A DNA stretch of 64,000 nucleotides from Bacteroidales bacterium. Lineage in GTDB: Bacteria > Bacteroidota > Bacteroidia > Bacteroidales > P3. Shown piece after piece: positions 5,326 through 62,000 of the stretch. Position 1 is the first letter of the stretch. Each line of letters starts with the position of its first letter. Position numbers and translations under genes: made by a program. The DNA lies in NCBI GenBank assembly GCA_017480785.1, contig JAFURZ010000005.1, positions 16,259-80,258 of the forward strand, read 5' to 3'. Under the pieces are notes generated by a model. It was not told the DNA's origin, ran no database searches, and saw only the letters and a list, made by a program, of their open reading frames with translations.

Positions 5326-6243
5326 ATGAAACAGATACAGAAAGCCGCCGAGCTTCAAGCGGCAGTAAGTGAAGCCAAAGCCAAGGGCCTGCAGATAGGC
5401 CTTGTGCCCACCATGGGCGCCCTGCACGAGGGCCACCTCTCGCTCATCGAGCGCGCCCTGAAGGAGAACGACCTCGTCGTGGTCTCCCTCTTCGTCAACC
5501 CCATCCAGTTCAACAACAGGGAGGACCTGGAGAAGTATCCCCGCACCATCGAGGCCGACCTGGAGCTAATCGAAGGGCTCATAGCTCACGCCGATTGCCG
5601 TGCCAAGGAGCTGTTGGCGTTCACGCCGACAGTCGACGAGATGTACCCCGACGGGGAGCCGACGGAGATTGTCTACCACTTCGGGCCCGTCGAGGAGGTG
5701 ATGGAAGGGCCGCGGCGTCCGGGCCACTTCAACGGGGTGGCCGTCGTGGTGCGCCGCCTGTTCGACCTCAGCCAGCCCACCCGCGCCTACTTCGGCGAGA
5801 AGGACTACCAGCAGATTGCCGTCATCCGCGCCCTGCTAGAGCAGATGCTACCCACTACCCACTACCCACTACCCACTCTCGTTCCCTGCCCCATCGTGCG
5901 TGCCGACGACGGCCTGGCCCTGAGCAGCCGCAACAAGCGCCTCACCCCCGCCGCCCGCCAGATGGCCCCCGCCATCAACGCCACCCTCGAGCAGGCCGCC
6001 GAGATGGCCGAGTACGAGGAGGTGGACGACGTCAAGGAGTGGGTGCTCGACACGCTGGCGTCGTGGCACGAGGTGAATGAGTGCGGCGAGGGCCTGAGGT
6101 TCGAGCCTGAATACTTCGAGATTGTCGACGCCATCACCCTCCAGCCCATCGCCGACTGGACGGATGCCGACGAGCACGGCGCAGTGGGCTGCATCGCCGT
6201 ATGGCTCGACGGCGTCCGCCTGATCGACATAGTTAAGTTTTAA
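5326..6243 (+). CDS. panC: Pantoate--beta-alanine ligase
   Basis: 305-aa ORF with PanC motifs GLVPTMGALHEGHLSLI, YFGEKDYQQ and DGLALSSRN. Carries an in-frame TACCCAC x4 array. Confidence 0.95.
   Translation: MKQIQKAAELQAAVSEAKAKGLQIGLVPTMGALHEGHLSLIERALKENDLVVVSLFVNPIQFNNREDLEKYPRTIEADLELIEGLIAHADCRAKELLAFTPTVDEMYPDGEPTEIVYHFGPVEEVMEGPRRPGHFNGVAVVVRRLFDLSQPTRAYFGEKDYQQIAVIRALLEQMLPTTHYPLPTLVPCPIVRADDGLALSSRNKRLTPAARQMAPAINATLEQAAEMAEYEEVDDVKEWVLDTLASWHEVNECGEGLRFEPEYFEIVDAITLQPIADWTDADEHGAVGCIAVWLDGVRLIDIVKF
5849..5876 (+). repeat. TACCCAC x4 heptamer array inside panC
   Basis: Four perfect 7-nt units read in frame as LPTTHYPLPT. Confidence 0.9.
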
Positions 6244-17900: not shown

Positions 17901-17975
17901 ATTATTTTAAAATATTTCAAATTTAATTATGCCGCAATCCACAAAGCGCTCTTTTCCACCAGCCTTGCAATTGAA

Positions 17976-18019
17976 TTCAACTTGAGTTCGACTTGAAAAC
18001 AAGTCGAACTCAAGTTGAA
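17976..18019. repeat. 19-bp-stem palindrome, sister of 4515-4566
   Basis: ttcaacttgagttcgactt-gaaaac-aagtcgaactcaagttgaa. Confidence 0.85.
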
Positions 18020-18048
18020 CTGAAATCAACAACATGAAAAAGAGGCGG

Positions 18049-19671
18049 CTACAGCAGGTCGAGCGAGTAGTGCAGACCGACGTTCTGCCGGCGGGCACGG
18101 GCCATCTTGATGATGAGATAGGCGCAGGCGATGAGGTTGCGCAGCTCGCTGAGGGGCTCGGTGAGCACGGAGCGGTTGTAGAGGTCCTCGGTCTCGCGGA
18201 AGATGAGGTTCAGACGGTCGAAGGCGCGCTGCAGGCGCAGGTCGCTGCGCACAATGCCGACATAGTTCCACATGATTTCCTGCAGCTCCTTCTTGGTCTG
18301 CGTGATGAGCACCATCTCCTCGTTGAGCACCATGCCCTCGGCGTTCCAGTCGGGCACTTTTGAGTGGGTAGTGGATAGTGGATAGTGGGTAGCATTTGAC
18401 CCTGTGCTCCCCACTACACACTCCCCACTACACACTTGCGCTATAGCCGACATGGCTGCGTTGTGGGCATAGACCACGGCCTCGAGCAGCGAATTGGAGG
18501 CCAGGCGGTTGCCGCCATGCAGACCCGTGCAGCTGCACTCGCCGGCGGCATAGAGGTTGAGGATGGACGATTGCCCGTTGCGGTCCACCTTGATGCCGCC
18601 GCACTGGTAGTGGGCTGCCGGCCGGATGGGTATCATGTCGCGCGTGATGTCGATGCCGATGGAGAGGCATTTGGCATAGATGGTGGGGAAGCCCTCGATG
18701 AGGTGCTTCTTGCCGATGCCGCGGGCGTCGAGGTAGAGGTAGTCCTTGCCGCTGAGTTTCATCTCGTTGTCGATGGCACGGGCCACAATGTCGCGCGGGG
18801 CGAGACTCAGGCGCTCGTCGTACTTCTGCATGAACTCCTTCCCGTCGCGGTCTTTCAGCACGGCGCCGGCGCCGCGCATGGCCTCGGTGATGAGGAAGGC
18901 GGGCTTCTCGGCGGGGTTGTAGAGCGAGGTGGGGTGGAACTGCATGAACTCCAGGTCGCTCAGCACGCCGCGGGCGCGGTGCACCATGGCCACCCCGTCG
19001 CCGGTCGAGATGACGGGCGTGGTGGTGGTGCTGTACACGTTGCCCATGCCGCCGGTGGCCAGCAGGGTGACGCGGGCCAGGTAGGTGTCGATGCGGTTGG
19101 TGTCACAGTCCAAAGCATAGACGCCGTAGCACTCGATGCCCGGCGTGTGCTTGGTGACGCGCTGGCCCAGATGGTGCTGGGTGATGATGTCGATGGCGAA
19201 CTGGCGTTCCTTGAGCTCGATGTTGGGATGCCGGCGCACGGCCTCGAGCAGGCCGCGCTCTATCTCCTCGCCTGTGTTGTCCTTGTGGTGCAGGATGCGG
19301 AACTCCGAGTGGCCGCCCTCGCGGTGCAGGTCGAAGCGGTCGCCGCCTTTCCCCTCGGCGGGGACGCGGTCGAAGTTGACCCCGTACTGCACCAGCTCGC
19401 GGATACGGTCAGGAGCCTCGCGGATGGTCATCTCCACCACCTCGCGGTCACAGATGCCGTCGCCGGCCACCAGGGTGTCCTGTATGTGCTTGTCGAACGA
19501 GTCGCTGTCGTACATCACCGCAGCGATACCCCCTTGGGCGTAGCGCGTGCTTCCCTCGCTGGCATCGCCTTTGGTCAGGATGCACACCCGGCCGTAGGGA
19601 GCCACCTTCAGGGCGAAACTAAGGCCCGCTATACCCGAGCCAACAACCAAGAAATCAACTTCGTAGCGCAT
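18049..19671 (-). CDS. nadB: L-aspartate oxidase
   Basis: ORF 18049..19758 trimmed to ATG 19671 (MRYEVDFLVVGSGIAGL FAD motif), downstream of TAtaTTTG (19695-19702, minus). Also RYAQGGIAAV. Carries an in-frame heptamer hairpin. Confidence 0.95.
   Translation of the reverse strand: MRYEVDFLVVGSGIAGLSFALKVAPYGRVCILTKGDASEGSTRYAQGGIAAVMYDSDSFDKHIQDTLVAGDGICDREVVEMTIREAPDRIRELVQYGVNFDRVPAEGKGGDRFDLHREGGHSEFRILHHKDNTGEEIERGLLEAVRRHPNIELKERQFAIDIITQHHLGQRVTKHTPGIECYGVYALDCDTNRIDTYLARVTLLATGGMGNVYSTTTTPVISTGDGVAMVHRARGVLSDLEFMQFHPTSLYNPAEKPAFLITEAMRGAGAVLKDRDGKEFMQKYDERLSLAPRDIVARAIDNEMKLSGKDYLYLDARGIGKKHLIEGFPTIYAKCLSIGIDITRDMIPIRPAAHYQCGGIKVDRNGQSSILNLYAAGECSCTGLHGGNRLASNSLLEAVVYAHNAAMSAIAQVCSGECVVGSTGSNATHYPLSTTHSKVPDWNAEGMVLNEEMVLITQTKKELQEIMWNYVGIVRSDLRLQRAFDRLNLIFRETEDLYNRSVLTEPLSELRNLIACAYLIIKMARARRQNVGLHYSLDLL
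18364..18435. repeat. GTGG(G/A)TA x4 array plus CTCCCCACTACACA x2 opposing arm inside nadB
   Basis: Left arm 18364-18393, right arm 18409-18435. Read in frame (minus) as ..VCSGECVVGSTGSNATHYPLSTTHS.. Confidence 0.85.
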
Positions 19672-23225: not shown

Positions 23226-23242
23226 CCTCCCCTTCACCTCCG

Positions 23243-23339
23243 CCATTTTTACGGTAGTATTACGGTAGTATTACGGTAGTATTACGCTTTAAAAGCGTAA
23301 TACTACCGTAATACTACCGTAATACTACCGTAAAAATGG
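23243..23339. repeat. ~47-bp near-perfect palindrome with TACGGTAGTAT 11-nt x3 arms
   Basis: ccatttttacggtagtattacggtagtattacggtagtattacgcttt | aaaagcgtaatactaccgtaatactaccgtaatactaccgtaaaaatgg. Confidence 0.9.
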
Positions 23340-23394
23340 TAGACCTGACATGGGGTCGAACAAAACTTTTTGCTCACGTATTAAATATTTTTTG

Positions 23395-26282: not shown

Positions 26283-26516
26283 AGGTGTGGTAATTTTATA
26301 AGGTTTTGTGCATTATTGCCATAAAAAAGGTACGGATGTTTCCGTCTGCCTTACAGGTTTACCACAACCTCCTTTCCCGACGGACACCGTACCATATAAA
26401 GCACGAATGCCCCAACGGGGAAGGATTATGGTGAAGCACTAATCGACTTCGAGGTGGTAATTTGTAAGGCAATTGAGTTCTTCTTGCCGTATGCATATCT
26501 CTCGCAAACGACGGTG

Positions 26517-26584
26517 CAAAAATACAAACTTTCTGCGACGTGACCAAATTTATTTTGCCATGTGGCTGAAATGTTGTATCTTTG
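26517..26584. promoter_or_regulatory. Back-to-back Bacteroides-type promoters (TM2 gene leftward, ribD rightward)
   Basis: Leftward TAttTTTG is the complement of 26517-26524; rightward TAtcTTTG is at 26577-26584. Central CAAA-tttat-TTTG supplies both -33 elements with 19-20 nt spacers. Confidence 0.65.
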
Positions 26585-26594
26585 CACCCTGAAA

Positions 26595-27677
26595 ATGACA
26601 CAGGAAGAGATAGACAAAAAGTATATGCGGCGCTGCCTGCAGCTGGCAGCCAACGGACTGGGTCGCGTGAGGCCCAACCCGTTGGTGGGGTGCGTGGTGG
26701 CGAGGCAAACGGAGAGTGGAGAGTGGAGAGTGGAGAGTGAAGGTTACCACCAATACTATGGCGGATGGCACGCCGAGCGCAACGCACTATTGCGTGCAAG
26801 CCAACTTTCAACTTTCAACTCTCAACTTTCAACTTTATATGTCAACCTCGAGCCCTGCTCGCACTACGGCCACACGCCACCCTGCGCCGACCTCATCATC
26901 GAGAAGGGCATCCGCCGGGTGGTCTGCTGCAACGACGACCCCAACCCCCTGGTGGCGGGGGGCGGCTTCCGCAAGCTGGAGGCCGCCGGCATCGAGGTGG
27001 TGCGTCACGTGCTCGAAGCGGAGGGCCGCGAACTGAACCGCCGCTTCTTCACCTTCATGGAGCAGCAGCGGCCCTACGTCATCCTCAAGTGGGCCGAGAG
27101 CAAGGACGGCTACATGGCGCCAAGCCCTAATTCTCAATCAGAACAAAAAGAAAATTCTGATAGTTCTTTTAGTTCTGATTGCAATAAAAAATACTGGCTC
27201 AGCACGCAGGAGCAGAACCGCCTGAACCACCGCTGGCGCACCGAGGAGGCCGCCATCCTCGTGGGCAGTGAGACCTTCCTGCGCGACCACCCCTCGCTCA
27301 CGGCACGCCACTACCTCGGTTCACAGCCGCAGCCCGTGGTGCTCGACCGCCGCGGACGCTTACTATCCCAATCAGAGGTTATTTCTCAATCAGGACTAAA
27401 AGAAAGTTCTGATAGTTCTTTTAGTTCTGATTGCAACAAAAGAGAATGGCTGGTTCTGCGGAGCCAGACCATCCCCGAGGTGCTGCATGCACTCTACGAG
27501 CACAAGCTGCAGAGCGTCATCGTCGAGGGCGGCCGCCAGATGCTGGACGCCTTCATCGAGAGCGGCCTCTACGACGAGGTGCGCATCCTCCGCAGCCTGC
27601 AGACCCTCGGCAGCGGCCTCAAGGCTCCCGCCATCCCGCCCATCGCCCCCAACCGCCTAATCATCATCGAGCCATGA
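26595..27677 (+). CDS. ribD: Bifunctional riboflavin biosynthesis deaminase/reductase RibD
   Basis: ORF 26562..27677 trimmed to ATG 26595, 10 nt after TAtcTTTG. Motifs RPNPLVGCVV, HAE, LEPCSHYGHTPPC and the reductase motif VIVEGGRQMLDAFIESGLYDEV. Confidence 0.9.
   Translation: MTQEEIDKKYMRRCLQLAANGLGRVRPNPLVGCVVARQTESGEWRVESEGYHQYYGGWHAERNALLRASQLSTFNSQLSTLYVNLEPCSHYGHTPPCADLIIEKGIRRVVCCNDDPNPLVAGGGFRKLEAAGIEVVRHVLEAEGRELNRRFFTFMEQQRPYVILKWAESKDGYMAPSPNSQSEQKENSDSSFSSDCNKKYWLSTQEQNRLNHRWRTEEAAILVGSETFLRDHPSLTARHYLGSQPQPVVLDRRGRLLSQSEVISQSGLKESSDSSFSSDCNKREWLVLRSQTIPEVLHALYEHKLQSVIVEGGRQMLDAFIESGLYDEVRILRSLQTLGSGLKAPAIPPIAPNRLIIIEP
26711..26738 (+). repeat. GGAGAGT x4 heptamer array inside ribD
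   Basis: Four perfect units read as ESGEWRVES. Confidence 0.9.
26803..26837 (+). repeat. AACTTTC x5 heptamer array inside ribD (imperfect inverse of 26711-26738)
   Basis: Units aactttc x2, aactctc, aactttc, aacttta. Read as QLSTFNSQLSTL. Confidence 0.9.
27127..27190 (+). repeat. In-frame palindromic element copy 1 inside ribD
   Basis: aatcagaacaaaaagaa...ttctgatagttcttttagttctgattgcaa. Reads PNSQSEQKENSDSSFSSDCNKK. Confidence 0.85.
27368..27445 (+). repeat. In-frame palindromic element copy 2 inside ribD
   Basis: caatcaggactaaaagaa...ttctgatagttcttttagttctgattgcaa (30 nt identical to copy 1). Reads SQSEVISQSGLKESSDSSFSSDCNKRE. Confidence 0.85.
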
Positions 27678-29416
27678 AACGCACACTACTCATAGCCCTG
27701 ATGCTCCTGCCGCTATTCCTGCGGGCACAGACAGTGGAGCCCACCTGGGAGAGACTCAATCAAAGAGGCTATCCGCAGTGGTTCAGCGACGCCAAGCTGG
27801 GCATTTTCATCCATTGGGGCCTCTACTCGGTGCCCGCCTATGCCGGCAAGGAGGGCTACGGCGAGTGGCTGTACAAAGGACTGATGAGCCGCGACCCCGG
27901 CCGCATGCGGGCTATGAGTTACTTCGCCGACACCACGCTGCCGGTGCGCGAGATGTACGGCCAGCTGACTCGCCACTGGCATGCCGAGCTGTGGAACCCG
28001 CAGGAGTGGGCGCGGATGTTCCGCGAGGCGGGGGCACAATACGTGATGCTGGTCACCAAGCACCACGACGGCTACAGCCTGTGGGACGACCCCTACCAGC
28101 CCGAGTGGAACAGCGTCGTCAGCGGCCCGCACCGCAACATCGTCGGGGAGCTGACTGAGGCCGTGCGCCGCGAGGGCCTCCGCATGTGCTTCTACTACTC
28201 GCTGCCGGAGTGGAGCAACCCGCTGCACCGCTGGACGGTGGCCCCCCACGACAGCATTGGCCGATACGTGGAGCAATACATGATACCGCAGTTCAAATCC
28301 CTCGTCAGCCGATACCACCCCGACGCCCTTTTCGCCGACGGCGATTGGGACTTCACCGCCGACCAGCTGCACAGCACCGACCTCATCGCCTGGTACTACC
28401 GCACCGTGGGTGACAAGGCCATCGTCAACGACCGCTGGGGCAAGGGCACGCAACACGGCTTCCGCACGCCGGAGTACAGCGCCGGCATCAGCGTGACAGA
28501 CAGGCCATGGGCCGAGTGCCGCGGCATTGGCCGCAGCTTCGGCCTGAACCGCAACGAGGACCTAGCCAACTACCTCACCTCCACCGAGCTCATCCAGCAC
28601 TTCTGCGAGCTGGTGGCCCACGGCGGCGGCCTCACCCTCAACGTGGGCCCCTACGCCGACGGCACCATCCCCCTCATCCAGCAGGAACGCCTGCAGGCGC
28701 TAGGCCGCTGGCTGCAAGTCAACGGAGAAGCCATCTACGGCAGCCGGCCCTACAGCATCCCTTGCCAGCAGGAACACATGTCAGCGGCGATGCCGCCGAA
28801 CACACACATCGACTACGACTGGGTGCGCAATGCTCCGCTGAAGGGGATGCCGGTGGACAACTTCACCATCCACTGGCATGGCATCTACAACGCACCCGAG
28901 AAGGGATGGTACCAGTTCAAAGCCGAGGCCGACGACGAGATGACGGTCGTCTACAATGGCGACACCATCTTGTATTACAACCATGCGTGGGCGGAAAACA
29001 AGCCTGCCACCAGGGTGCTGCTGAAACAGAACCAAGCCATTGAATTGGATGTATTCTACCGCGAGAAAGACCTTGAGGCTAAAGCTGCGCTCTATGTCGG
29101 CAAGGACGGAAAGGACTTTGCACTGGCCGACGGGGCATGGCACGGCATCGCCACCTGGGAGCGCACCTTCCGCTGCTTCACCGCCAAAGGTGACACCCTG
29201 TATGTGATAGAGTTCGAGCGTCCCGGCCAGACGGTAGTCATCCCCGACATGCCGCGTCTGCGGAAAGGCTCCACCGTCACCCTGCTCGGCACCACGGGCA
29301 CCATCCGCTGGAAGCAGAAGCGCGACAGCACCCTCACGCTCGACCTCTCCAGCCTCGACACCAAGGAACTGGGCGCCCTCGACCATGCCTGGGTGTTCCG
29401 AATCGAAAAACAATAA
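27674..29416 (+). CDS. Alpha-L-fucosidase (GH29) with C-terminal PA14-like region
   Basis: ORF 27431..29416 trimmed to ATG 27674 (MKRTLLIALMLLPLFLRAQ), which overlaps the ribD stop as ATGA. Motifs KLGIFIHWGLYSVPAY and YVMLVTKHHDGYSLWD. Confidence 0.9.
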   Translation: MKRTLLIALMLLPLFLRAQTVEPTWERLNQRGYPQWFSDAKLGIFIHWGLYSVPAYAGKEGYGEWLYKGLMSRDPGRMRAMSYFADTTLPVREMYGQLTRHWHAELWNPQEWARMFREAGAQYVMLVTKHHDGYSLWDDPYQPEWNSVVSGPHRNIVGELTEAVRREGLRMCFYYSLPEWSNPLHRWTVAPHDSIGRYVEQYMIPQFKSLVSRYHPDALFADGDWDFTADQLHSTDLIAWYYRTVGDKAIVNDRWGKGTQHGFRTPEYSAGISVTDRPWAECRGIGRSFGLNRNEDLANYLTSTELIQHFCELVAHGGGLTLNVGPYADGTIPLIQQERLQALGRWLQVNGEAIYGSRPYSIPCQQEHMSAAMPPNTHIDYDWVRNAPLKGMPVDNFTIHWHGIYNAPEKGWYQFKAEADDEMTVVYNGDTILYYNHAWAENKPATRVLLKQNQAIELDVFYREKDLEAKAALYVGKDGKDFALADGAWHGIATWERTFRCFTAKGDTLYVIEFERPGQTVVIPDMPRLRKGSTVTLLGTTGTIRWKQKRDSTLTLDLSSLDTKELGALDHAWVFRIEKQ

Positions 29417-29431: not shown

Positions 29432-30174
29432 TCACCCTTTCACCTCGACTTTCTGGATGGGATGGCCGGCCACCTTGACGTAATAGAATCCAGCACCAGG
29501 CATGCGCATCACCACGCGCGGTTCGTCCCCTCCAGTACTCACAATATGCCCCATGGGATCGTAGACCTCGACTGGTAACACATCGGCACCCGTCACGATA
29601 ATTTGCAGCCCGTCGACAGCGACCGACACCTCCTGCACCTCCTCCTTGTCAGCCTTGTGAACACGCCGTCGCACCGCGTCTACAGCGACATTCCCAACAA
29701 TGTCGAAACGGGTCAACACCAGGCCCTCGGGCAGCATGCCTCCCGTGCAAACAATCTCCACACAAATATTCCGTCCACTGAAATGACTTAAATCGACACT
29801 GACATGTTCCTCGGCATGGCACACTGCAAGAGCCGCCACAAGCCATTCCAGCACGCCATCGCTACATCGCACACGCAGGGCATAGTGCAACGGAGAGTTG
29901 ACAGGAAGATTGTTGGAATAGTGAAGACCCAAATGTAGCGACATCTGCGAGCCAGTGGGAATACTGAACCATGGACTAATCAGCCGGTCGCCGTACTCGC
30001 AGAGGGTCAGGGCCGCGCCCCTCGCGACATCACGACTGTCGCCATAGCGCCAGCCACGAGGTGACAACCTGTCGTAACAGTACAATATTTTACCCCCCCC
30101 ACAACCTGCGCGGTTGCCGAAAGCGGGAGAAAAGACAGTAGTACCGCCACAAGATATATTTGCCTCAGGTTCAA
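29432..30174 (-). pseudogene. T9SS cargo protein (choice-of-anchor-J-like domain + C-terminal sorting domain), frameshifted at a G8 tract; phase-variation candidate
   Basis: The main ORF 29432..30199 has no signal peptide. The neighbouring frame (ORF 30007..30246) encodes MNLRQIYLVAVLLSFLPLSATAQ from TTG 30174. The two frames meet at C8 (+ strand, 30093-30100). The body has DRLISPWFSIPTGSQMSLHL and a CTD ending GFYYVKVAGHPIQKVEVKG. Confidence 0.55.
30093..30100 (-). repeat. G8 (C8 on + strand) homopolymer tract at the frameshift site of the T9SS cargo gene
   Basis: The signal-peptide frame and the body frame meet here. G9 (or G6) would fuse them. Confidence 0.85.
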
Positions 30175-31077: not shown

Positions 31078-31160
31078 TCAACTCCGTAACAACTCCGACT
31101 CAACTCCGACACAACTCCGACCATGGTCCGACTGCAGTCGGAGAATCGTCGGAGTAGTTT
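31078..31160. repeat. CAACTCCGAC(A/T) 11-nt tandem units with opposing GTCGGAG arms
   Basis: caactccgtaa/caactccgact/caactccgaca/caactccgacc ... gtcggagaatc/gtcggagtagtt. Confidence 0.75.
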
Positions 31161-31412
31161 TGGTGATGAAACGGAGGTGGTGCAGATTATATCGTGCACG
31201 ATTTAATTCACAATCCCGCACCACCGACGGTGGCCCAGGTCGGCGAGGTGGAGGAGGAGGAAAAAGCAGCCGGAGCAAAACTTTTTTTGGCCGTGTCGGA
31301 AAAAAGTTGTAATTTCGTGCTTTGAAGCAGCCCGCCCATTCGCGCCCTCGACAGCGTACAACGGGTTGATTTCGACGTAGATAAACCGTTTTGACAAAAT
31401 AGAGACATATAT

Positions 31413-34130: not shown

Positions 34131-34134
34131 CACA

Positions 34135-34203
34135 GTGGATAGTGGGCAGTGGGTAGTGGGTAGCACACGTGGTCAGCAGCTACCCACTACCCACTACCCA
34201 CTA
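34135..34203. repeat. GTGGGTA x4 / TACCCAC x3 hairpin between the PorE-like stop and the miaA core
   Basis: gtgggtagtgggtagc (34149-34164) pairs perfectly with gctacccactacccac (34179-34194). Confidence 0.9.
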
Positions 34204-37790: not shown

Positions 37791-37912
37791 CCGACCATTG
37801 CACCGACCGGGCCGCTTTGCCCGCCGGAAGCATCGAACAAGGCCCGGGGAAAGGTCGACACAATCCCCTGTCCCCACATCCTCAGGGTTTTCAACTGCTG
37901 TTCTTCGGTCGT

Positions 37913-42560: not shown

Positions 42561-42566
42561 CGACTG

Positions 42567-42634: not shown

Positions 42635-42657
42635 CAGTCGGAAAACACACATTCGGC

Positions 42658-47146: not shown

Positions 47147-50100
47147 ATGGTTAGAAGAATCTACGTAGAGAAGAAATCCCCCTATGCCGTGAAGGCGAAG
47201 GAGCTCAAGACCGAAATGAGCGAATACCTCGGCATCGAAGCCGACGTGGTACGCGTGCTGGTGCGCTACGACGTGGAGAATGTCAGCGACGCCACCTTCC
47301 ACACCGCGCTGACCACCGTCTTCAGCGAGCCTCCGGTGGACGACGTGTACCTCGAAGAGTTTCCCCGCAAGGAGAACGACTTCTGCTTCACCGTGGAGTA
47401 CCTCCCCGGCCAGTTCGACCAACGGGCCGACAGCGCCGAGCAGTGCGTCTGCCTCCTCAACGACGCCGAGCACCCCATCATCAAGTCTGCCACCACCTAC
47501 GTCATCTCTGGAGTGGATAGCGGGAAGTGGAAAGAGGACAGCGACTGGCAATCGGCCATCATCGCCCACTGCGTCAATCCGGTCGACAGCCGCCGTGCCG
47601 ACGGTCCCAAACCAGACACCCTCGAGGACCACTTCGACGAGCCTGCCGACGTCATCACCTTCGACGGCTTCAAGGACATGCCCGAGCCGCAGCTGAAAAG
47701 CCTTTACGACGGCCTCGGACTGGCCATGACCTTCGCCGACTTCCTGCACATCCAGCGCTACTTCCACGACGAGGAGCACCGCGACCCCACGATGACCGAA
47801 ATCCGCGTCCTCGACACCTACTGGAGCGACCACTGCCGCCACACCACCTTCGCCACCGAGCTGAAGGACGTCCGCTTCGACGACGGCTTCTACCGCCCCC
47901 TCATCGAGGGCGCCTTCCGGCAGTACCTCGCCGACCACCGCGAGCAGTATGCCGGACGCACCGACAAGTACGTCTGCCTGATGGATATCGGCACCCTGGC
48001 GGCCAAACGGCTCAAGAAAGCCGGCTACCTCGACGACCAGGAGCCCAGCGACGAAATCAACGCCTGCTCCATCGTGGTGCCCGTCACCATCGACGGCAAC
48101 CGCGAGGAGTGGCTCATCAACTTCAAGAACGAGACCCACAACCACCCCACCGAGATTGAGCCCTTCGGCGGCGCGGCCACCTGCCTCGGCGGCTGCATCC
48201 GCGACCCGCTCAGCGGCCGCACCTACGTCTACCAGGCCATGCGCGTCACCGGCGCCGCCGACCCCACCAAGCCCCTCAGCGAGACCCTCCCCGGCAAGCT
48301 GCCCCAGCGCAAGATTGTCACCACCGCCGCCCGCGGCTACTCCAGCTACGGCAACCAGATAGGCCTCGCCACAGGGCTAGTCAACGAGATATACCATCCC
48401 AACTACGTAGCCAAGCGCCTGGAGATAGGCGCCGTCATCGCCGCCGCCCCGCGCCGTGCCGTGAAGCGCCTCACCTCCGACCCGGGCGACGTCATTATCC
48501 TGCTTGGTGGCCGCACCGGCCGCGACGGCATCGGCGGCGCCACGGGTGCCTCGAAGAGCCACACCAGCAAGTCGCTCACCACCTGCGGCGCCGAGGTGCA
48601 GAAGGGCAACGCCCCCACCGAACGCAAGATACAACGCCTCTTCCGCCGCGAAGAGGTCAGCAGCCTCATCAAGAAGTGCAACGACTTCGGCGCCGGCGGC
48701 GTCAGCGTGGCCATCGGCGAACTGGCCGACGGACTCCAAATCAACCTCGACCGCGTACCCAAGAAGTATGCCGGCCTCGACGGCACCGAACTCGCCATCA
48801 GCGAGAGCCAGGAGCGCATGGCCGTGGTGGTCGACCCCAAGGATGTGGACCAGATGCTGCGCTACGCCGACGAGGAGAACCTCGAAGCCACCGTCGTGGC
48901 CACCGTCACCGAGGAGCCCCGCATGGTCATCTCTTGGCGCGGCAAAGAGATAGTGAACCTCAGCCGCCGCTTCATCGACACCAACGGCGCCCACCAGGAA
49001 ACCACCGTGAAGGTGAAGATGCCCGAGAAAATTGAAAATGGAAAATTGAAAATTGAAAATTCGCTGCCGCACCCGGATAATTCTCAATTCTCAACTCTCA
49101 ATTCTCAATTGAAGGACCTTTGGTTCCAGACCCTCTCCGACCTCAACGTCTGCTCGCAGAAAGGCCTCGTCGAGATGTTCGACAGCTCCATCGGCGCCGG
49201 CAGCGTGGTGATGCCCTTCGGCGGCCGCTACCAGCTGACGCCCACGCAGTGCATGATAGGCAAGCTGCCCCTCCTGGACGGCAAGTGCGACACCGTGACC
49301 CTCATGTCCTACGGCATGGACCCCTACCAGACCTCGTGGAGTCCCTTCCACGGCGCCGCCTATGCCGTGCTCGGCAGCGTGGCCAAGATTGCCGCCGCCG
49401 GCGGCGACGTCAGCCGCGTGCGCCTCACCTTCCAAGAATACTTCAAGAAACTGGGCACCGACCCCTACCGCTGGGGCGAGCCCTTCACCGCCCTCCTCGG
49501 CGCCTACCACGCCCAGATGGGCCTCCACCTACCCGCCATCGGCGGCAAGGACTCCATGTCCGGCACCTTCAACGACATCGACGTGCCGCCCACCTTCTGC
49601 TCCTTCGCCGTCGGCGTCAGCGACCTGCAGCACGTCGTCACCCCCGAGCTGAAGAAAGCCGGCAACCGGCTGGTGCTGCTCGATGTCAAGGAGGACCAGT
49701 ACGGCATGCCCGACTATGCCGACGCCCTCAACCAGTACGCCGCCCTGCACCGCGCCGTCGAGGCCGGCCGGGTGTGCAGCGCCTATGCCCTCGGCATGGG
49801 CGGCATCGTCGAGGCCGTCAGCAAGATGGCCTTCGGCAACAAGCTGGGCGTCCGCATGGCCCCCGTGCCCGAGACATCAGCCTCGGGTCTCGCCGCCAAG
49901 CACTATGGCTGGCTTGTCGTCGAGGTAGCCGGCACAGAAGAGCTGCCCTTCCGCTGCACCGGGATTGGCGAGGTCACCGCCGAGCCCGTGTTCGAGGTGG
50001 CCGGCGAGAAGATAAGCCTCGACGAGGCCCTCGCCGCATGGCAGAAGACGCTCGAAGGCGTCTTCCCCACCCGTAGCACCCAGCAAGCGGAAAGTGGAAA

Positions 50101-50977
50101 GTGGAAAGTGGAAAGCGCTCTGTACAACACTCCGAAGGAGAAACTTTCAACTTTCAACTATCAACTTTCAAGTTCCGCGAAGCCGAGAGTCTTCATCCCC
50201 GCCTTCCCCGGCACCAACTGCGAGTACGACTCGGCCCGCGCCTTCAACCGCGCCGGTGCCGAGAGCGAAATCATCGTCTTCCGCAACCAGAACGGCCAGC
50301 AGATTCGCGAGAGCGTGGACGCCTATGTCGACGCCATCCGCCGCAGCCAGATTATCATGCTGCCCGGCGGCTTCAGTGCCGGCGACGAACCCGAAGGCAG
50401 TGCCAAATTCATCACCAGCGTCTTCCGCAACCCCAAGATTGCCGACGCCGTGATGGAGCTGCTCCAGAAGCGCGACGGCCTCATGCTGGGCATCTGCAAC
50501 GGCTTCCAGGCCTTGGTGAAGCTCGGCCTGGTGCCCTACGGCGAGATACGTCCGCAGGCCGCCGACGCCCCCACGCTGACCTTCAACACCATCGGCCGCC
50601 ACCAGAGCAAGATGGCCTACACCCGCGTCAGCTCCAACCTCAGCCCCTGGCTGCGCAAGGCCGAACTCGGCGCCACCTACGTCATTCCCATCTCGCACGG
50701 CGAGGGCCGCTTCGTGGCCCCGCAGGAATGGATTGACAGCCTCTTCCGGAACGGACAGGTGGCCACACAGTACTGCGACCTCGACGGCAACCCCACCATG
50801 GACGAGGAGTACAACATGAACGGCTCCTACTGCGCCATCGAAGGCATCACCAGCCCCGACGGACGCGTCTTCGGCAAGATGGGACACAGCGAACGCCGCA
50901 GCAAAGGCAGCGCCCTCAATATCTATGGCAACGACGACCAGCAGATATTCGAGAGCGGCGTACAGTACTTCAAGTAG
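47147..50977 (+). CDS. purL: Phosphoribosylformylglycinamidine synthase (single-chain)
   Basis: 1276-aa ORF with NHPTEIEPFGGAATCLGGCIRD, a repeated AIR-synthase-like core and a C-terminal glutaminase (GICNGFQAL, SHGEGR). Two in-frame heptamer hairpins. Confidence 0.97.
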   Translation: MVRRIYVEKKSPYAVKAKELKTEMSEYLGIEADVVRVLVRYDVENVSDATFHTALTTVFSEPPVDDVYLEEFPRKENDFCFTVEYLPGQFDQRADSAEQCVCLLNDAEHPIIKSATTYVISGVDSGKWKEDSDWQSAIIAHCVNPVDSRRADGPKPDTLEDHFDEPADVITFDGFKDMPEPQLKSLYDGLGLAMTFADFLHIQRYFHDEEHRDPTMTEIRVLDTYWSDHCRHTTFATELKDVRFDDGFYRPLIEGAFRQYLADHREQYAGRTDKYVCLMDIGTLAAKRLKKAGYLDDQEPSDEINACSIVVPVTIDGNREEWLINFKNETHNHPTEIEPFGGAATCLGGCIRDPLSGRTYVYQAMRVTGAADPTKPLSETLPGKLPQRKIVTTAARGYSSYGNQIGLATGLVNEIYHPNYVAKRLEIGAVIAAAPRRAVKRLTSDPGDVIILLGGRTGRDGIGGATGASKSHTSKSLTTCGAEVQKGNAPTERKIQRLFRREEVSSLIKKCNDFGAGGVSVAIGELADGLQINLDRVPKKYAGLDGTELAISESQERMAVVVDPKDVDQMLRYADEENLEATVVATVTEEPRMVISWRGKEIVNLSRRFIDTNGAHQETTVKVKMPEKIENGKLKIENSLPHPDNSQFSTLNSQLKDLWFQTLSDLNVCSQKGLVEMFDSSIGAGSVVMPFGGRYQLTPTQCMIGKLPLLDGKCDTVTLMSYGMDPYQTSWSPFHGAAYAVLGSVAKIAAAGGDVSRVRLTFQEYFKKLGTDPYRWGEPFTALLGAYHAQMGLHLPAIGGKDSMSGTFNDIDVPPTFCSFAVGVSDLQHVVTPELKKAGNRLVLLDVKEDQYGMPDYADALNQYAALHRAVEAGRVCSAYALGMGGIVEAVSKMAFGNKLGVRMAPVPETSASGLAAKHYGWLVVEVAGTEELPFRCTGIGEVTAEPVFEVAGEKISLDEALAAWQKTLEGVFPTRSTQQAESGKWKVESALYNTPKEKLSTFNYQLSSSAKPRVFIPAFPGTNCEYDSARAFNRAGAESEIIVFRNQNGQQIRESVDAYVDAIRRSQIIMLPGGFSAGDEPEGSAKFITSVFRNPKIADAVMELLQKRDGLMLGICNGFQALVKLGLVPYGEIRPQAADAPTLTFNTIGRHQSKMAYTRVSSNLSPWLRKAELGATYVIPISHGEGRFVAPQEWIDSLFRNGQVATQYCDLDGNPTMDEEYNMNGSYCAIEGITSPDGRVFGKMGHSERRSKGSALNIYGNDDQQIFESGVQYFK
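49027..49110 (+). repeat. GAAAATT x5 / AATTCTC x4 inverted heptamer arrays inside purL
   Basis: Left arm 49027-49061, right arm 49079-49110. Reads KIENGKLKIENSLPHPDNSQFSTLNSQL. Confidence 0.9.
50089..50171 (+). repeat. GGAAAGT x4 / AACTTTC x4 inverted heptamer arrays inside purL
   Basis: Left arm 50089-50116, right arm 50142-50171. Reads ESGKWKVESALYNTPKEKLSTFNYQL. Confidence 0.9.
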
Positions 50978-59057: not shown

Positions 59058-62000
59058 CTAATGGTGGATTACGAGTGTTTGATGGGCACGTCCGGTGGCT
59101 GTCACGAGCCGTAGCAGGTAGACACCGTCGGGGAGGGACGGGAAGCGGTAGGTGGCGGGGGCTACATGGCGCGTCGAGAAACAGAGGCGGCCGTAGAGGT
59201 CGAGCACCTGCAGTTCACCCTGCCCGCCGCCGTCCACCGTCACCGTGCCGTTGCACGGGTTGGGGAAGACATGCAGCGACGGCAGGCCGGGCTGCACTAT
59301 GCCGAGCCGGGTGCTGTCGCCAAACCAGCCATAGGCCGAATCCCACAGCGCCAGCGGAAGCCTCACGTCGTCAATCCACGCACAGTCGCTGCCGGCCGAG
59401 CCGCTCTCGTCCTTCACATAGCGCCACCGCAGCGTGTGGCGGCCGGCGTCGAGCACCGTCGTGTAGCATTTCCATCCGGCTTCGCCCCACCGTTCGTTGC
59501 CGCGCCGCACGCCGTCGACCGAGAAGAGCAGCTTGTCATACTGCGCCTCGCTCGACACCCGCGACCAGTAGCTGAGCGTGTCGCGTTGGGGGAGCAGCAC
59601 CTCGAGGACGAGGTCCGAGGTCTGGCGGTAGTCGATGGCACCGCTGCGCACGCTGAAGCGGCCGCTGTGACTCACCGTGCTATCCACCACCCACGGCTGC
59701 GTGCCGCCCTGTTGCCACGGATAGCTGGCGAAGCCCTCCTCGAAGCTGTCGGCCCGTTGGCCGCCGACCATGTACCAGTCGTAGTCCCTGCGGTGGTTGC
59801 CCAGCGCGACGGAGGCCTGCAGGTGCAGGTGGGTCAGGGTGTCGTCGGGGGTGGAGAATGGAGAGTGGAGAGTGGGGAGTGGAGAGCGGAAAGTGGAAAG
59901 CGTATCGCCCGAAGGGAGTGCGGTGAGGCCGAGGCTCACGCTGTCGCACGACCCCTCGACGGTGGTCTGAAGCAAGTATGTGTGCATCGGCAGCAAGCGG
60001 TTTGTCTCGCTGCTGTCGGCCTCCAGCAGGCGGACCGAGAGTTCGGGATAGCGAGGTTCCAGCCGCCCTTGCAGCCTGATGCAGCACAGCATCCCCTCGA
60101 TGCTGTCCCAGGCGAAGAGGTACGCCTGCCAGCCCGGCTGCTGTCCCACGGCAACCAGCTGCAACGGCACCGCCACCCGACGACTCTGGTGCGGCAGCAG
60201 GGTGTCGACCACCGTCTGTTGCTCTGCGACCAAGGCGTCGGCAGCACTGTCGGCATCAATCTGCGACAGCACCACCCGCAGGCCGTAGAGCGGCACCGCG
60301 CCCACGTTCTCCACGCGGCACTCCACCACGCTGTCGCCGACCGTCACTTCACGCAGCGCCACCCCAGTGCCTTCGGCAGCCGCCACAGTCAGCGTGTCAA
60401 TCCGCGGCCGGTGGTGACGGGCTGTGGCCGTGAGGACGAGCAGCGAGGTGTCGACCGACTGACCGAGCTGCAACGCCAGCAGTCCGTCGGGACCCATCAC
60501 GCCCATGCCCAGCACCGTGTCGTGCTGCATGGCCGTGACCGTACAGCCCGGCGTGCCGCCCAGATGCAGCGTGCCCGCGCCGTCAGTCGGCTGCCCGTTG
60601 GTCAGGTGCAGCTCGAGGGGCTGCGGAACACCCACCCAAGGCTCGAGCGACGGGTCTCCCAGCAGGCAGTAGGTCTCCCAGTAGAACTTGTCGTAGGGCG
60701 ACCCCACCGCCGTGACCGCCAGGTTGCCGGCCGTCAGCAGCTCGCCTTGGCTGTGCACCCCACCCGTGCGGCCCAGCCACCGGTCGAACGGACCGGGGCG
60801 CAGGCTGTCGTACTGCGGCGTGAGGCTCAGCGGGAGCTTCGGCCCCACGGCCCAGTAGTAGTCCTCGTCCCAGAGGGTGGAGTTGGTGGCGCCGATGACG
60901 CCGATGGCGCCGCCGTCGGCCTTGCGCAGCAGCTGCTCGCCGAAGCAGGTGCCGTCGAAGGCGTTGCTCAGGCAGCAGTTGTTCACGTAGAGGAGCGGCT
61001 GCGGGTTGTCGAGGGTGTCGATGCTGGTGAAGGTCACCGACGGACTGGTCCAGCCGGCGGAGGTGCAATGGGCCGTATAGTTGAGCAAGGCCACGCCGCG
61101 GCGCAGGTCGCCGAGGATGGCCGGCCGTTGGTCGGCCGAGGCGGGGTTGTGGTAACACAGGGTGTCGAGGAAGGGATGCGCCAGACGTGCCTCACGCGCC
61201 ACATAGTCCACCTGCCCGTTGGTGGTCACCGGTGCCGGCGCGCGGTCTTCGCTTCCGGCCACCAGCAGCAGGCGCTTCAGGCGTGCAGTGTCGATGTCGG
61301 CGCCCTGCTCGTAGCGGATGCACTTACGCACCACGGCGCCCAGCTCGGCGGTGTCGTTCACCGGCCAGCGGCCCAGCAACGCGTCGGGCAGGTAGTCGCC
61401 CGTGAACTCGGCATAGTAGAGGTCGGTGACGTGGTTGCCGAGGCCGGTGGGATGTGTGGTGCCCGGGAAAGCCTGCAGCAGCGCCACATCGCCCACCAGC
61501 AGCACGTGGCGCGGTCCACGGCTGCCGTCGGCGCTCCAGAGGGGGCGCATCAGGGCCTTCACGCTGTCGCGCAGGTGGGTGTCGACATAGAGCTCCATCA
61601 CCTCGAAGCCCTGCTGCCGTTTCCAGCGTACAAAAGGCTGCAATCCTTCGCGGAACAGCGGCCGCGACACAACCAGATAGCCATGGGTGCCAAGCGACGG
61701 GGAGGCGGCCTTGCCGACATGCAGCAGCGCGTCGACCGAGGTATCGCACTCCAGAAGGCCGTCCACGGGCCGGTAGCCCACGGGGCGCACCGTCACCCGG
61801 AACAGCTGCTCTGCTCCCATCACGCCGAGGAGCTCCACCTCCACCCGCCCGCCGCCGCGGTAAAGGTCGCCGGAGCCATACACCTTCGCGTCGGGACAGT
61901 AGTCGGGCGGCAGCCCGTCCTTGACCCATCCCTCCGTCACCGGTGCCAGGGGGCGGCCCTGCGGCACGACATCCATCGACACGGTGCCGGTCGACCGCAC

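What the first reader, a model, noticed from the sequence alone, without database searches (positions are those of the whole stretch)
26711..26837. Inverted heptanucleotide arrays bracket the catalytic-site codons of ribD
(GGAGAGT)x4 at 26711-26738 is read as ESGEWRVES. (AACTTTC)x5 at 26803-26837 is read as QLSTFNSQLSTL. The second array is the imperfect reverse complement of the first; both fit GARAGTK units. The 64 nt between them encode GYHQYYGGWHAERNAL, the conserved zinc/deaminase motif. So the loop of this potential hairpin is native coding sequence, not an insertion. By my recollection of E. coli RibD, the arrays occupy two short loops and lengthen each by about 4-6 aa. A 7-nt unit is not a multiple of 3, so slippage by one unit would frameshift an essential gene.
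Basis: partly seen in the sequence, partly recalled or inferred. Interest (0 to 1): 0.7.

Follow-up and report, generated by a model that had tools for sequence, protein, structure and literature searches.

The report
In-frame heptamer repeat arrays in ribD
Two 7-base tandem repeats really do sit inside the riboflavin gene ribD on either side of its catalytic motif, but they are two independently varying members of a repeat family that peppers many housekeeping genes of this uncultured rumen bacterium, and nothing indicates that they form a purpose-built hairpin.

Summary
(GGAGAGT)x4.1 lies at 26711-26739 and (CAACTTT)x5 at 26802-26836. Both are in frame in ribD and flank the native HAE zinc/deaminase codons. 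Each array replaces a short loop and adds 5 residues compared with array-free orthologs.

The hairpin reading is weak. The arms are only 72% Watson-Crick complementary, which is no better than arm 1 against unrelated arrays elsewhere in the window. Among about 90 orthologs from uncultured rumen or hindgut Bacteroidales, the two sites are filled or empty independently. In one lineage the arrays are direct rather than inverted, and the arms do not covary.

The window holds 8 period-7 and 4 period-11 arrays, against 0 expected by chance. Many are read in frame in PanC, a NadB-like protein, PurL, MiaA and a C25 peptidase. Array lengths always differ by multiples of 3. The units evolve in concert in place, and short recombination tracts shuffle the alleles. 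Independent assemblies from other samples are identical.

Best reading: these are tolerated, probably selfish or neutral long-unit simple-sequence repeats and hairpin elements, filtered by selection for an intact reading frame. They resemble Rickettsia palindromic elements and intragenic REPs, but with arms built from tandem heptamers. How the arrays are copied between loci remains unknown.

The parts
26595..27677 (+). ribD coding sequence (bifunctional deaminase/reductase), 360 aa, host of four in-frame repeat patches
   Evidence: ORF list. Pfam dCMP_cyt_deam_1 and RibD_C. 100% identical to NCBI MAG protein MBQ8703112.1.
26711..26739 (+). Site-1 array (GGAGAGT)x4.1, purine-rich type, read as ESGEWRVES. 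It replaces the native beta1-beta2 turn (KDGRII) and adds 5 aa.
   Evidence: TRF. Ortholog alignment. PDB alignment gap. The AF2 model puts strands at 32-38 and 44-51 with pLDDT 82-84.
26740..26801 (+). Native core between the arrays, EGYHQYYGGWHAERNALLRAS (zinc-ligand His and catalytic Glu). It is not part of any repeat.
   Evidence: Invariant H59-A60-E61 in alignment A1. Present in all orthologs with or without arrays.
26802..26837 (+). Site-2 array (CAACTTT)x5, pyrimidine-rich type, read as QLSTFNSQLSTL. It replaces the native loop xGDYxGA after the HAE helix and adds 5 aa.
   Evidence: TRF. Ortholog DNA. Coil at residues 67-78 in the AF2 model.
27123..27191 (+). Site-3 patch: an AT-rich palindromic element read in frame (SPNSQSEQKENSDSSFSSDCNKK)
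   Evidence: GC falls to 27%. 18-nt arms are 94% complementary (I18). Absent or replaced by other elements in orthologs. Absent from 2HXV and 2B3Z.
27363..27446 (+). Site-4 patch: a second copy of the same AT-rich palindromic element, read in frame
   Evidence: GC falls to 30%. Inverted arms (I19). Motif count is 7 against 0.04 expected. Absent in many orthologs.
50081..50176 (+). PurL hairpin 2: (GGAAAGT)n, a 24-nt loop, then (AACTTTC)n. It uses the same units as ribD and reads AESGKWKVES...LSTFNYQLS.
   Evidence: Absent from most PurL orthologs.
49027..49110 (+). PurL hairpin 1: (GAAAATT)x5, a 17-nt loop, then (AATTCTC)x4.6. It spans 84 nt, which is 28 codons.
   Evidence: Orthologs carry other heptad-periodic peptides or a shorter linker at this position.
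34132..34200 (+). MiaA N-terminal hairpin: (AGTGGGT)n, a loop, then (CTACCCA)n. It is 69 nt long and read in frame after codon 3.
   Evidence: Empty site in L119. Different elements at the same spot in L001 and L087, all preserving the ORF. Arms are 96% complementary (I10).
18363..18436 (-). Heptamer hairpin inside the NadB-like FAD oxidoreductase gene
5848..5877 (+). Single (CTACCCA)x4.3 array inside panC, read as LPTTHYPLP
59851..59897 (-). (GTGGAGA)x6.7 array (written on the + strand; the same unit as ribD site 1) inside a peptidase C25 gene on the minus strand
23234..23348 (.). Intergenic hairpin with arms of tandem 11-mers (TTACGGTAGTA)x3.5. The arms are 57 nt long and 93% complementary.
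   Evidence: I1.

Best explanation
The two arrays are long-unit (7-nt) simple-sequence repeats. They belong to a lineage-specific repeat family that fills this genome with purine-rich and pyrimidine-rich arrays, singly or as hairpins. In a sub-clade of uncultured rumen or hindgut Bacteroidales, the codons of two surface loops of the RibD deaminase domain were overwritten by such arrays.

What keeps the arrays in place is the absence of harm, not a function. The patch length must be a multiple of 3. The unit must be free of stop codons in all three frames of the coding strand. The encoded heptad-periodic peptide must fit a loop, a linker or an N-terminus.

Once in place, an array evolves in concert: a change in one unit spreads through the array while the total length stays fixed. 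Alleles with and without an array are exchanged between lineages by short tracts of homologous recombination. The potential mRNA stem between the two ribD arrays is a by-product of the general purine/pyrimidine complementarity of the family.

Shown here: the arrays are derived states; the two sites vary independently; the frame is always preserved; units evolve in concert; alleles are mosaic; the arms do not covary; the sequence is stable across samples.

Inferred: the arrays are neutral or selfish, and the units are copied between loci by slippage plus microhomology-seeded templated repair, gene conversion or template switching rather than by a transposase.
For: Derived state: deeper relatives (L003, L007-L009, L011, L144-L146 and others) have native loops at both sites.

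Independence of the two sites:
- Site 1 only: L167/P0002 and P0098.
- Site 2 only: L001, L086, L090, L092, L110 and many others.
- Neither site: L082, L099, L100.

No specific pairing: own-pair complementarity is 0.74, against 0.70-0.76 for arm 1 with unrelated arrays. There is no excess on the diagonal across 11 lineages, and L166 has direct arrays.

Coding constraint:
- All span lengths among about 90 orthologs are congruent modulo 3.
- The perfect complement of arm 2, (GAAAGTT)n, would place a TGA in every frame within 3 units (worked out from the sequence).
- The miaA arm carries the one G-to-C change that removes a TAG.

Concerted evolution in place: six unit types at site 2 share one total length (45 nt). 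In the same register they form a series of single-base steps, CTTTCAA, CTTTCCA, CTATCCA, CTACCCA.

Recombination: L108 and L110 are about 99% identical except for a 27-to-42 nt patch at site 1 plus 2 SNPs within 20 nt of it. Site-1 alleles are scattered over the gene tree.

Genome-wide family:
- 8 period-7 and 4 period-11 arrays against 0 expected.
- Arrays read in frame in PanC, a NadB-like protein, PurL (two), MiaA and a C25 peptidase.
- The same positions carry different elements in different lineages.

Stability: independent assemblies are identical.

Structure: the arrays align to gaps or loops of solved RibD structures and to a hairpin turn and a coil in the model.
Against: - The predicted RNA stem is strong: -52.4 kcal/mol, z = -3.96, and no shuffle reached it. 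Most orthologs with both arrays could also pair, with duplex energies of -27 to -51 kcal/mol. A structural role is therefore not excluded.
- In L164 the two arrays are exact complements.
- No copying mechanism was identified. There is no target-site duplication, no conserved element ends, and no transposase among about 45 ORFs scanned. The 'selfish' label therefore rests on analogy.
- Repeated occupation of the same codon positions by unrelated elements could reflect targeting rather than selection alone.
- The structure model has low overall confidence (mean pLDDT 52).
Confidence: 0.7

Rival explanations
1. The two arrays began as one inverted pair. The site-1 array was written as a templated inverted copy of a (TCCACTT)n site-2 array, by intrastrand template switching or quasi-palindrome correction, or by gene conversion from another hairpin. 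The two arms have drifted apart since. This is a claim about origin and is compatible with neutrality today.
For: - Every site-1 array in 11 lineages matches the reverse complement of the L164/L001-type site-2 array best (0.71-0.96).
- L164 still has exact complements.
- The native site-1 flank GTGGTGAAGGA shares microhomology with GTGGAAAGTGGA.
- PurL hairpin 2 uses the same unit pair and may likewise flank native-like residues.
Against: - L167 and P0098 carry the site-1 array with a fully native site 2, although recombination could have produced that combination.
- (GGAAAGT)n arrays also exist at other loci and could have been the donor.
- L166 has direct arrays.
Confidence: 0.2
2. The pair is a functional mRNA (or single-stranded DNA) hairpin that encloses the catalytic-site codons. 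It would tune ribD translation or mRNA stability.
For: RNA minimum free energy is -52.4 kcal/mol, z = -3.96, with the arms pairing in 6-bp blocks. Pairing is possible in most orthologs that have both arrays.
Against: - There is no covariation and no own-pair excess of complementarity.
- Homogenised substitutions in the window lowered complementarity from the ancestral GAAAGTG pair.
- Many orthologs have only one array or none, and one has direct arrays.
- Folded as DNA, the region gives only z = -2.0.
- There is no Rfam match.
Confidence: 0.07
3. The array-encoded peptides are adaptive additions to RibD. They might form a longer beta-hairpin and loop that affect oligomerisation, stability or interactions.
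For: - The site-1 peptide is modelled as an extended beta-hairpin with the best local confidence in the model (pLDDT 82-84).
- The same peptides (ESGKWKVES, LSTFNFQLS) recur in PurL.
- The site-1 length is fixed at 42 nt in 10 of the 11 lineages that carry it; L164 differs only by a nested insert.
Against: - Closely related lineages lack the peptides entirely.
- The site-2 peptide sequence changes freely with the unit type.
- The same DNA units occur in unrelated proteins and in intergenic DNA.
Confidence: 0.06
4. The arrays are the inverted repeats of an intragenic inverton. A recombinase flips the segment and switches ribD off, as described for thiC and other genes of Bacteroides thetaiotaomicron (PMC10028968).
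For: - The host is a Bacteroidales, and the repeats lie inside a vitamin-biosynthesis gene.
- Flipping 26711-26837 in silico gives a stop at codon 44. Flipping only the core recodes the segment and removes the HAE motif.
Against: - The arms are only 72% complementary.
- All 91 loci in which the segment between site 1 and site 2 was recovered, and all independent assemblies of the window sequence, have the forward orientation.
- Lineages with one arm or with direct arms retain the arrays.
- No recombinase gene lies nearby.
Confidence: 0.04
5. The arrays make ribD a contingency (phase-variable) locus that switches on and off by gain or loss of one 7-nt unit.
For: The unit length is not a multiple of 3 and the arrays lie inside an ORF.
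Against: - No length variant was found in independent assemblies or between near-identical pairs (L002/L083, L084/L091, L087/L095, L086/L088).
- Array length is fixed across deep divergence.
- There are only 4-5 units.
- The host is a housekeeping gene.
Confidence: 0.03

Closest known systems
Rickettsia palindromic elements (RPEs; Ogata et al. 2000, 2002, as summarised in PMC10969869)
   Same: Hairpin-forming repeats are inserted in frame into unrelated housekeeping genes. They are translated as extra surface peptides without destroying the protein. Many copies occur per genome.
   Different: RPEs are elements of about 100-150 bp with a conserved family consensus, found in obligate intracellular alpha-proteobacteria. 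Here the arms are tandem 7-mers or 11-mers, the loops are unrelated between copies, native codons are replaced rather than simply interrupted, and the host is a free-living gut anaerobe.
Intragenic REPs (GTAG- and CGTC-tagged palindromes; Di Nocera et al. 2013, PMC3733652)
   Same: Short stem-loop repeats, sometimes inside coding regions, adding 20-30 residues. Some units here (AGTGGGTAG, TTACGGTAGTA) contain GTAG.
   Different: The ribD units lack the GTAG or CGTC tag. The arms are tandem arrays rather than single 5-13 bp stems. No RAYT gene was seen in 64 kb.
Long-unit simple sequence repeats, especially heptanucleotide repeats (Mrazek et al. 2007 as described in PMC4679880; cyanobacterial STRR; TAACTGA repeats)
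   Same: Head-to-tail 7-nt units occur far above chance. Heptamers are the most abundant long-unit class in many genomes. Polymerase slippage is the proposed source.
   Different: The known cases are mostly intergenic, and units that are not multiples of 3 are depleted in ORFs. Here many arrays are read in frame in enzymes and often come as inverted pairs.
Phase-variable contingency loci (intragenic or promoter SSRs of Haemophilus and Neisseria)
   Same: A repeat whose unit is not a multiple of 3 lies inside an ORF, so slippage would shift the frame.
   Different: No copy-number polymorphism was found, the host is a housekeeping gene, and the arrays are short and fixed in length.
Eukaryotic Foldback transposons (comparison from my own knowledge, not checked here)
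   Same: Inverted arms built from short tandem repeats, with a variable middle segment.
   Different: Kilobase scale, eukaryotic, and associated with a transposase. Nothing of that kind was shown here.
Intragenic invertons of Bacteroides (PMC10028968)
   Same: Inverted repeats inside a coding gene of a Bacteroidales, including a vitamin-synthesis gene.
   Different: No orientation variant was observed, the repeats are imperfect, and no recombinase was found.

Membership tests
Long-unit simple sequence repeat (heptanucleotide) | Three or more head-to-tail copies of a 5-11 nt unit | tested here: met
   4.1 and 5.0 copies of 7-nt units, with 100% and 92% matches.
Long-unit simple sequence repeat (heptanucleotide) | Frequency far above the compositional expectation | tested here: met
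   8 period-7 arrays observed against 0.0 in 100 shuffles. 14 pattern hits against 0.00 expected.
Rickettsia palindromic elements | In-frame insertion in ORFs that leaves the protein intact | tested here: met
   The ORF is intact, the catalytic residues are invariant, and lengths differ by multiples of 3.
Rickettsia palindromic elements | Conserved family consensus of about 100-150 bp shared by all copies | tested here: not met
   Only the 7-nt unit is shared. The loops of different copies are unrelated, and the ribD 'loop' is native gene sequence.
REP / RAYT system | Terminal GTAG or CGTC tag on the stem-loop | tested here: not met
   The ribD units GGAGAGT and AACTTTC contain neither tag. 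Some other arrays in the window contain GTAG.
REP / RAYT system | An associated Y1 (RAYT) transposase gene in the genome | tested here: inconclusive
   None among about 45 ORFs of the 64-kb window scanned with Pfam. The rest of the genome was not available.
MITE | Terminal inverted repeats plus a target-site duplication | tested here: not met
   Comparisons of filled and empty sites (ribD site 1 in L108/L110; miaA in WIN/L119; L086/L107) show replacement or seamless junctions with microhomology and no duplication.
Phase-variable contingency locus | Unit-number polymorphism among close strains or within populations | tested here: not met
   Independent assemblies are identical. Near-identical locus pairs have identical arrays. 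Read-level data were not available.
Conserved structured RNA element | The structure is conserved and supported by covariation | tested here: not met
   No own-pair excess of complementarity. Orthologs exist with one array, none, or direct arrays. No Rfam hit.
Intragenic inverton | Both orientations of the segment are present in the population | not testable with these tools
   Only consensus assemblies were available, and all are in the forward orientation. The consequence of flipping was computed.
RibD (bifunctional deaminase/reductase) | CDA-fold deaminase with HAE and PCxxC zinc motifs, plus a RibD_C reductase domain | tested here: met
   Pfam E-values 7.7e-15 and 1.9e-23. H59/A60/E61, C88 and C97 are invariant. 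PDB RibD hits down to E = 5e-54.

The most novel reading that the evidence does not exclude
This clade of uncultured rumen Bacteroidales may have an active, undescribed process that writes inverted arrays of tandem 7-mers and 11-mers into genes. It could be a new kind of non-autonomous 'foldback-like' micro-element or a templated repair or template-switch pathway. It would act at recurrent positions and overwrite loop codons without a target duplication. The ribD pair would then be a split instance whose arms enclose native catalytic codons. A narrower version of this reading is that the pair acts as an intragenic inverton or regulatory stem for riboflavin synthesis.
Probability: 0.2. Interest if true: 0.8.

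Novelty: new variant of a known kind. Interest (0 to 1): 0.55.

Why it matters
In-frame colonisation of housekeeping enzymes by repeats has been regarded as a peculiarity of Rickettsia and a few other genomes, and is usually put down to small population size. Here the same outcome appears in an abundant, free-living, recombining gut anaerobe.

The repeats also differ from the known cases in three ways:
- The arms are tandem heptamers or 11-mers.
- The units are homogenised in place even though a one-unit slip would be lethal to the gene.
- Different elements repeatedly occupy the same few codon positions.

This gives a natural data set on three questions: which loops of RibD, PurL, MiaA, PanC and a NadB-like protein tolerate insertions; how repeats with units that are not multiples of 3 persist inside ORFs; and how such sequences spread without an obvious transposase.

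There is a practical point too. These patches inflate and fragment gene calls and alignments in rumen MAGs.

Tried and rejected
- Assembly artefact: rejected. Independent assemblies are identical, and the same array types appear in ENA, JGI, Logan and NCBI orthologs.
- Known RNA family or FMN riboswitch: none. The only Rfam hits in the window are two Acido-Lenti-1 matches elsewhere. The promoter-like -7 box lies only about 10 nt before the ATG.
- Transposase or RAYT nearby: none among about 45 ORFs.
- Target-site duplications or conserved element ends: none in the comparisons of filled and empty sites.
- PurL against solved structures, to place its arrays: the alignment did not reach the array regions. 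Ortholog alignment was used instead.
- Structure prediction: only the deaminase domain was usable (mean pLDDT 52). I did not search structure libraries with it.
- Literature: searches for heptanucleotide arrays in Bacteroidales or for in-frame hairpins in this clade found no prior description. The library lacks most subscription journals.
- One Pfam call failed on bad coordinates, as did two early calls.
- The gene tree is a simple neighbour-joining tree on identity distances. I use it only to show that site-1 alleles are scattered, not to count gains.
Full report
**1. What is in the sequence**

Tandem Repeats Finder reports two arrays. One lies at 26711-26739 (period 7, 4.1 copies, 100% matches, unit GGAGAGT). 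The other lies at 26802-26836 (period 7, 5.0 copies, 92%, unit CAACTTT) (sequence). Both are inside ORF 26562..27677 on the + strand.

From the ATG at 26595 the 360-aa product has a cytidine/dCMP deaminase zinc-binding domain (E = 7.7e-15) and a RibD_C reductase domain (E = 1.9e-23). It matches solved RibD structures down to E = 5e-54. It is 100% identical to a protein annotated in an NCBI MAG.

In frame, the arrays read TESGEWRVES and QLSTFNSQLSTL. The 62-63 nt between them encode EGYHQYYGGWHAERNALLRAS, which carries the zinc-ligand His and the catalytic Glu.

The arrays are far beyond chance. In 100 triplet shuffles of the window no array of period 7 or 11 appeared, against 8 and 4 observed.

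They are not assembly artefacts. Two independent ENA assemblies from other samples are 99.995% and 100% identical to window 16571-37677. Their only difference is one C in a poly-C run at 30093-30100.

**2. How good is the "inverted repeat"?**

The best ungapped register of arm 1 against the reverse complement of arm 2 has 21 of 29 Watson-Crick positions plus 3 G:U. The repeat finder with 9-nt seeds does not report the pair.

Folded as RNA, 26700-26845 gives -52.4 kcal/mol (z = -3.96 against shuffles), with the arms pairing in 6-bp blocks separated by single mismatches. Folded as DNA it gives -22.1 kcal/mol (z = -2.0). A long-range stem is thus possible on paper.

The complementarity is not specific to this pair:
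- Arm 1 scores 0.74 with its own partner.
- It scores 0.70-0.76 with unrelated pyrimidine-rich arrays in purL, miaA, panC and the nadB-like gene.
- Genuine adjacent hairpins in the window score 0.80-0.96.

All heptamer units here follow a common purine-rich pattern (AGTGGRR-like) or its complement. Any array of one type therefore pairs roughly 5 of 7 with any array of the other type.

One of the mismatches is forced by coding. The perfect complement of arm 2 would be (GAAAGTT)n. That repeat contains TGA, and a tandem heptamer is read in all three frames within three units, so the stop could not be avoided. The G that arm 1 carries instead (GAGAGTG) avoids it. PurL hairpin 2 shows the same G.A mismatch.

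**3. Orthologs: derived, independent, in frame**

The closest relatives are uncultured Bacteroidales from rumen and hindgut: RUG MAGs, yak and deer MAGs, 'bacterium P3' and Candidatus Colimorpha. Close orthologs are 68-85% identical but range from 310 to 382 aa. The alignment shows four indel hot spots. I extracted the DNA of sites 1 and 2 from about 90 loci.

- Deeper relatives have native loops. At site 1 they read VVKDGxIVS-EGYHQ, as do T. maritima and B. subtilis RibD, where the window shows a 5-residue insertion. At site 2 they read LLRxGDFRGATL.
- The arrays replace loop codons. At site 1 about 17 nt are lost and 32 nt gained. At site 2 about 21 nt are lost and 30-36 nt gained. Each site gains 5 aa in the window.
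- The two sites vary independently. Site 1 alone is filled in L167/P0002 and P0098. Site 2 alone is filled in L001, L086, L090, L092, L110 and many others. Neither is filled in L082, L099 and L100.
- In L166 the two arrays are direct copies of one unit type rather than inverted. In L164 they are exact complements, and the site-1 array is split by a nested 48-nt insert.
- Across 11 lineages with both arrays, a lineage's site 1 is no more complementary to its own site 2 than to the site 2 of other lineages. There is no covariation.
- Every length difference over the region that spans both sites is a multiple of 3. The observed spans are 116, 119, 122 ... 281 nt, all congruent modulo 3.

**4. How the arrays evolve**

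At site 2, six different unit types give exactly the same total length: 45 nt from the LL codons to the TL codons. In one register they form a series of single-base steps: CTTTCAA (L090), CTTTCCA (L001, whose first unit is CTATCCA), CTATCCA/CTACCCA (L101), and CTACCCA (L092). This is what concerted evolution within a resident array looks like. Repeated fresh insertion would not give it.

In the window, arm 1 (GAGAGTG) and the complement of arm 2 (GAAAGTT) each differ by one homogenised substitution from the GAAAGTG unit seen in L163, L167 and L164. Both changes lower pairing.

Site-1-filled alleles are scattered over a gene tree built without the indel sites. L108 and L110 are about 99% identical except for the site-1 patch and two SNPs within 20 nt of it. 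That is the signature of a short recombination tract.

The window itself looks mosaic. Its core variant (QYYGGW) and its 51-nt site-2 type are shared with L161-L163, while the rest of the gene groups with L167 and L168.

**5. The wider family**

The window has 12.5 period-7 arrays per 100 kb. Close relatives have 7.9, deeper relatives 1.9, and other Bacteroidota 2.5. Other periods are near zero, except period 11.

Arrays read in frame occur in:
- PanC (5848-5877);
- a NadB-like flavoprotein (18363-18436, minus strand);
- PurL (49027-49110 and 50081-50176);
- a C25 peptidase (59851-59897, minus strand);
- the N-terminus of MiaA (34132-34200).

PurL hairpin 2 and the C25 array use the same units as ribD.

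At the miaA site, L119 is empty. L001 carries a different 102-nt palindrome and L087 a different heptamer hairpin. All three filled versions keep the ORF open. The window's copy has the single G-to-C change that removes the TAG that (AGTGGGT)n would otherwise create.

PurL orthologs show the same picture. The linker at hairpin 1 carries a different heptad-periodic peptide in nearly every lineage. Hairpin 2 is present in a few lineages and absent in most.

ribD sites 3 and 4 hold two copies of an AT-rich palindrome that also occurs between genes at 10674-10795. Orthologs have that element, other palindromes, or nothing at those sites.

Comparisons of filled and empty sites show no target duplication. 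The junctions share microhomology with the unit. No transposase or RAYT was found among about 45 ORFs of the window.

**6. Placement in the protein**

The AlphaFold model is poor overall (mean pLDDT 52; shallow alignment), but the deaminase domain is usable. It has strands at 32-38 and 44-51 (the site-1 array lengthens the beta1-beta2 hairpin; pLDDT 82-84), a helix at 60-66 (HAE), a coil at 67-78 (site 2; pLDDT 62-69) and a strand at 79-83.

The two arrays therefore occupy the two loops on either side of the beta2/HAE-helix unit. That is enough to explain why they flank the catalytic motif.

**7. Interpretation**

The best-supported reading (confidence 0.7) is that these are tolerated long-unit simple-sequence arrays of a lineage-specific repeat family. 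Selection filters them for an intact frame, they evolve in concert, and recombination shuffles them. The hairpin potential is a family-level by-product.

Shown: the arrays are derived states; the two sites vary independently; the frame is preserved; units evolve in concert; alleles are mosaic; the arms do not covary; the sequence is stable across samples.

Inferred: the arrays are neutral, and the copying mechanism is slippage plus microhomology-seeded templated repair, gene conversion or template switching.

A compatible hypothesis about origin (0.2) is that site 1 began as an inverted copy of a (TCCACTT)n site-2 array, because every site-1 array matches that type best.

The rivals are each below 0.1:
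- a functional RNA stem;
- adaptive loop peptides;
- an intragenic inverton, as in B. thetaiotaomicron thiC (PMC10028968; flipping would give a stop at codon 44);
- phase variation by unit slippage.

**8. Comparison with known systems**

Heptanucleotide repeats are the commonest long-unit repeats in many bacteria and are attributed to polymerase slippage (Mrazek et al. 2007 as described in PMC4679880). They are mostly intergenic.

In-frame palindromic insertions are known as Rickettsia palindromic elements (PMC10969869) and as intragenic REPs (PMC3733652). The present case shares with them the outcome, extra surface peptides in housekeeping enzymes.

It differs in four respects:
- the arms are tandem heptamers or 11-mers;
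- the loops are unrelated between copies, or native as in ribD;
- native codons are replaced;
- the host is a free-living gut anaerobe.

It fails the defining tests for RPE (no shared consensus), REP (no tag in the ribD units), MITE (no target duplication) and contingency locus (no polymorphism). I found no description of this family in the searchable literature.

I therefore rate it a new variant of a known kind, with moderate interest. The specific "hairpin around the catalytic site" idea is largely explained away. The underlying genome-wide phenomenon, and the unknown way it is written, deserve follow-up.

Noticed in passing
window 27123-27191 and 27363-27446; also 10674-10795: ribD carries two more in-frame patches. 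Both are copies of an AT-rich palindrome (arms CAATCAGAACaAAAAGAA / TTCTTTTAGTTCTGATTG), and a larger copy lies between genes. The arm motif occurs 7 times against 0.04 expected. Orthologs carry this element, other palindromes, or nothing at the same two codon positions.
   Followed up: partly
window 34132-34200: A 69-nt heptamer hairpin is read in frame just after codon 3 of miaA. One G-to-C change removes the TAG that the repeat unit would otherwise create. The site is empty in L119. L001 and L087 each carry a different element there, and both keep the ORF open.
   Followed up: yes
window 49027-49110 and 50081-50176: PurL contains two in-frame heptamer hairpins. In orthologs the first position carries a different heptad-periodic peptide in almost every lineage. 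Several PurL orthologs on long contigs are called as fragments that all start at the same internal Met (MRVTGAADPT...), which suggests a split or frameshifted gene upstream.
   Followed up: partly
window 5848-5877; 18363-18436 (-); 59851-59897 (-): Further in-frame heptamer arrays lie in panC, in a NadB-like flavoprotein gene and in a C25 peptidase gene.
   Followed up: partly
window 23234-23348; 4515-4566; 17971-18024; 31083-31186; 37906-37969; 62378-62440; 1206-1246: Intergenic hairpins whose arms are tandem 11-mers. The largest has 57-nt arms that are 93% complementary, just downstream of a large peptidase-like gene. They may act as terminators; this was not tested.
   Followed up: no
window 6252-6299 (-) and 6401-6447 (+): Two Rfam Acido-Lenti-1 RNA matches (43.3 and 40.4 bits; gathering score 37) lie in inverted orientation about 100 nt apart, just downstream of panC. 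They are the only Rfam hits in the window.
   Followed up: no
window 26515-26590; 42561-42640; 45716-45807: A conserved palindromic cassette of about 75 nt carries Bacteroidetes-type promoter boxes (TTTG ... TAtcTTTG) on both strands. It occurs upstream of ribD, upstream of a Bro-N gene, and between a Mg-chelatase-like gene and sod. The -7 box lies only about 10 nt before the ribD ATG, which leaves no room for an FMN riboswitch.
   Followed up: partly
window 30093-30100: A poly-C run is C8 in the window and C9 in the independent assembly L169. It is the only difference in 21 kb and lies upstream of the Impact_N-family gene. It could be a sequencing error or a variable tract.
   Followed up: no
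window 27677-29416: An alpha-L-fucosidase gene lies between ribD and the Impact_N-family gene in the window, L161 and the assemblies identical to the window (L169, L170). The other relatives whose gene maps were checked (L162, L165-L168) have ribD followed directly by Impact_N or by a DUF6794 or unannotated gene.
   Followed up: no
loci L073, L046, L006, L076 (other Bacteroidota MAGs): Unrelated Bacteroidota MAGs have their own heptamer arrays. L073, for example, has at least 13 arrays of AAGGCGC/AAGGCTC and their complements in 7.7 kb. Heptamer arrays are therefore not confined to this clade.
   Followed up: no
locus L164, site 1 of ribD: A 48-nt insert (a small CCCCGAAGGGG hairpin followed by an A-run) is nested inside the site-1 heptamer array and is read in frame. 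It recalls the small elements nested in cyanobacterial heptamer repeats (from memory, not checked).
   Followed up: no
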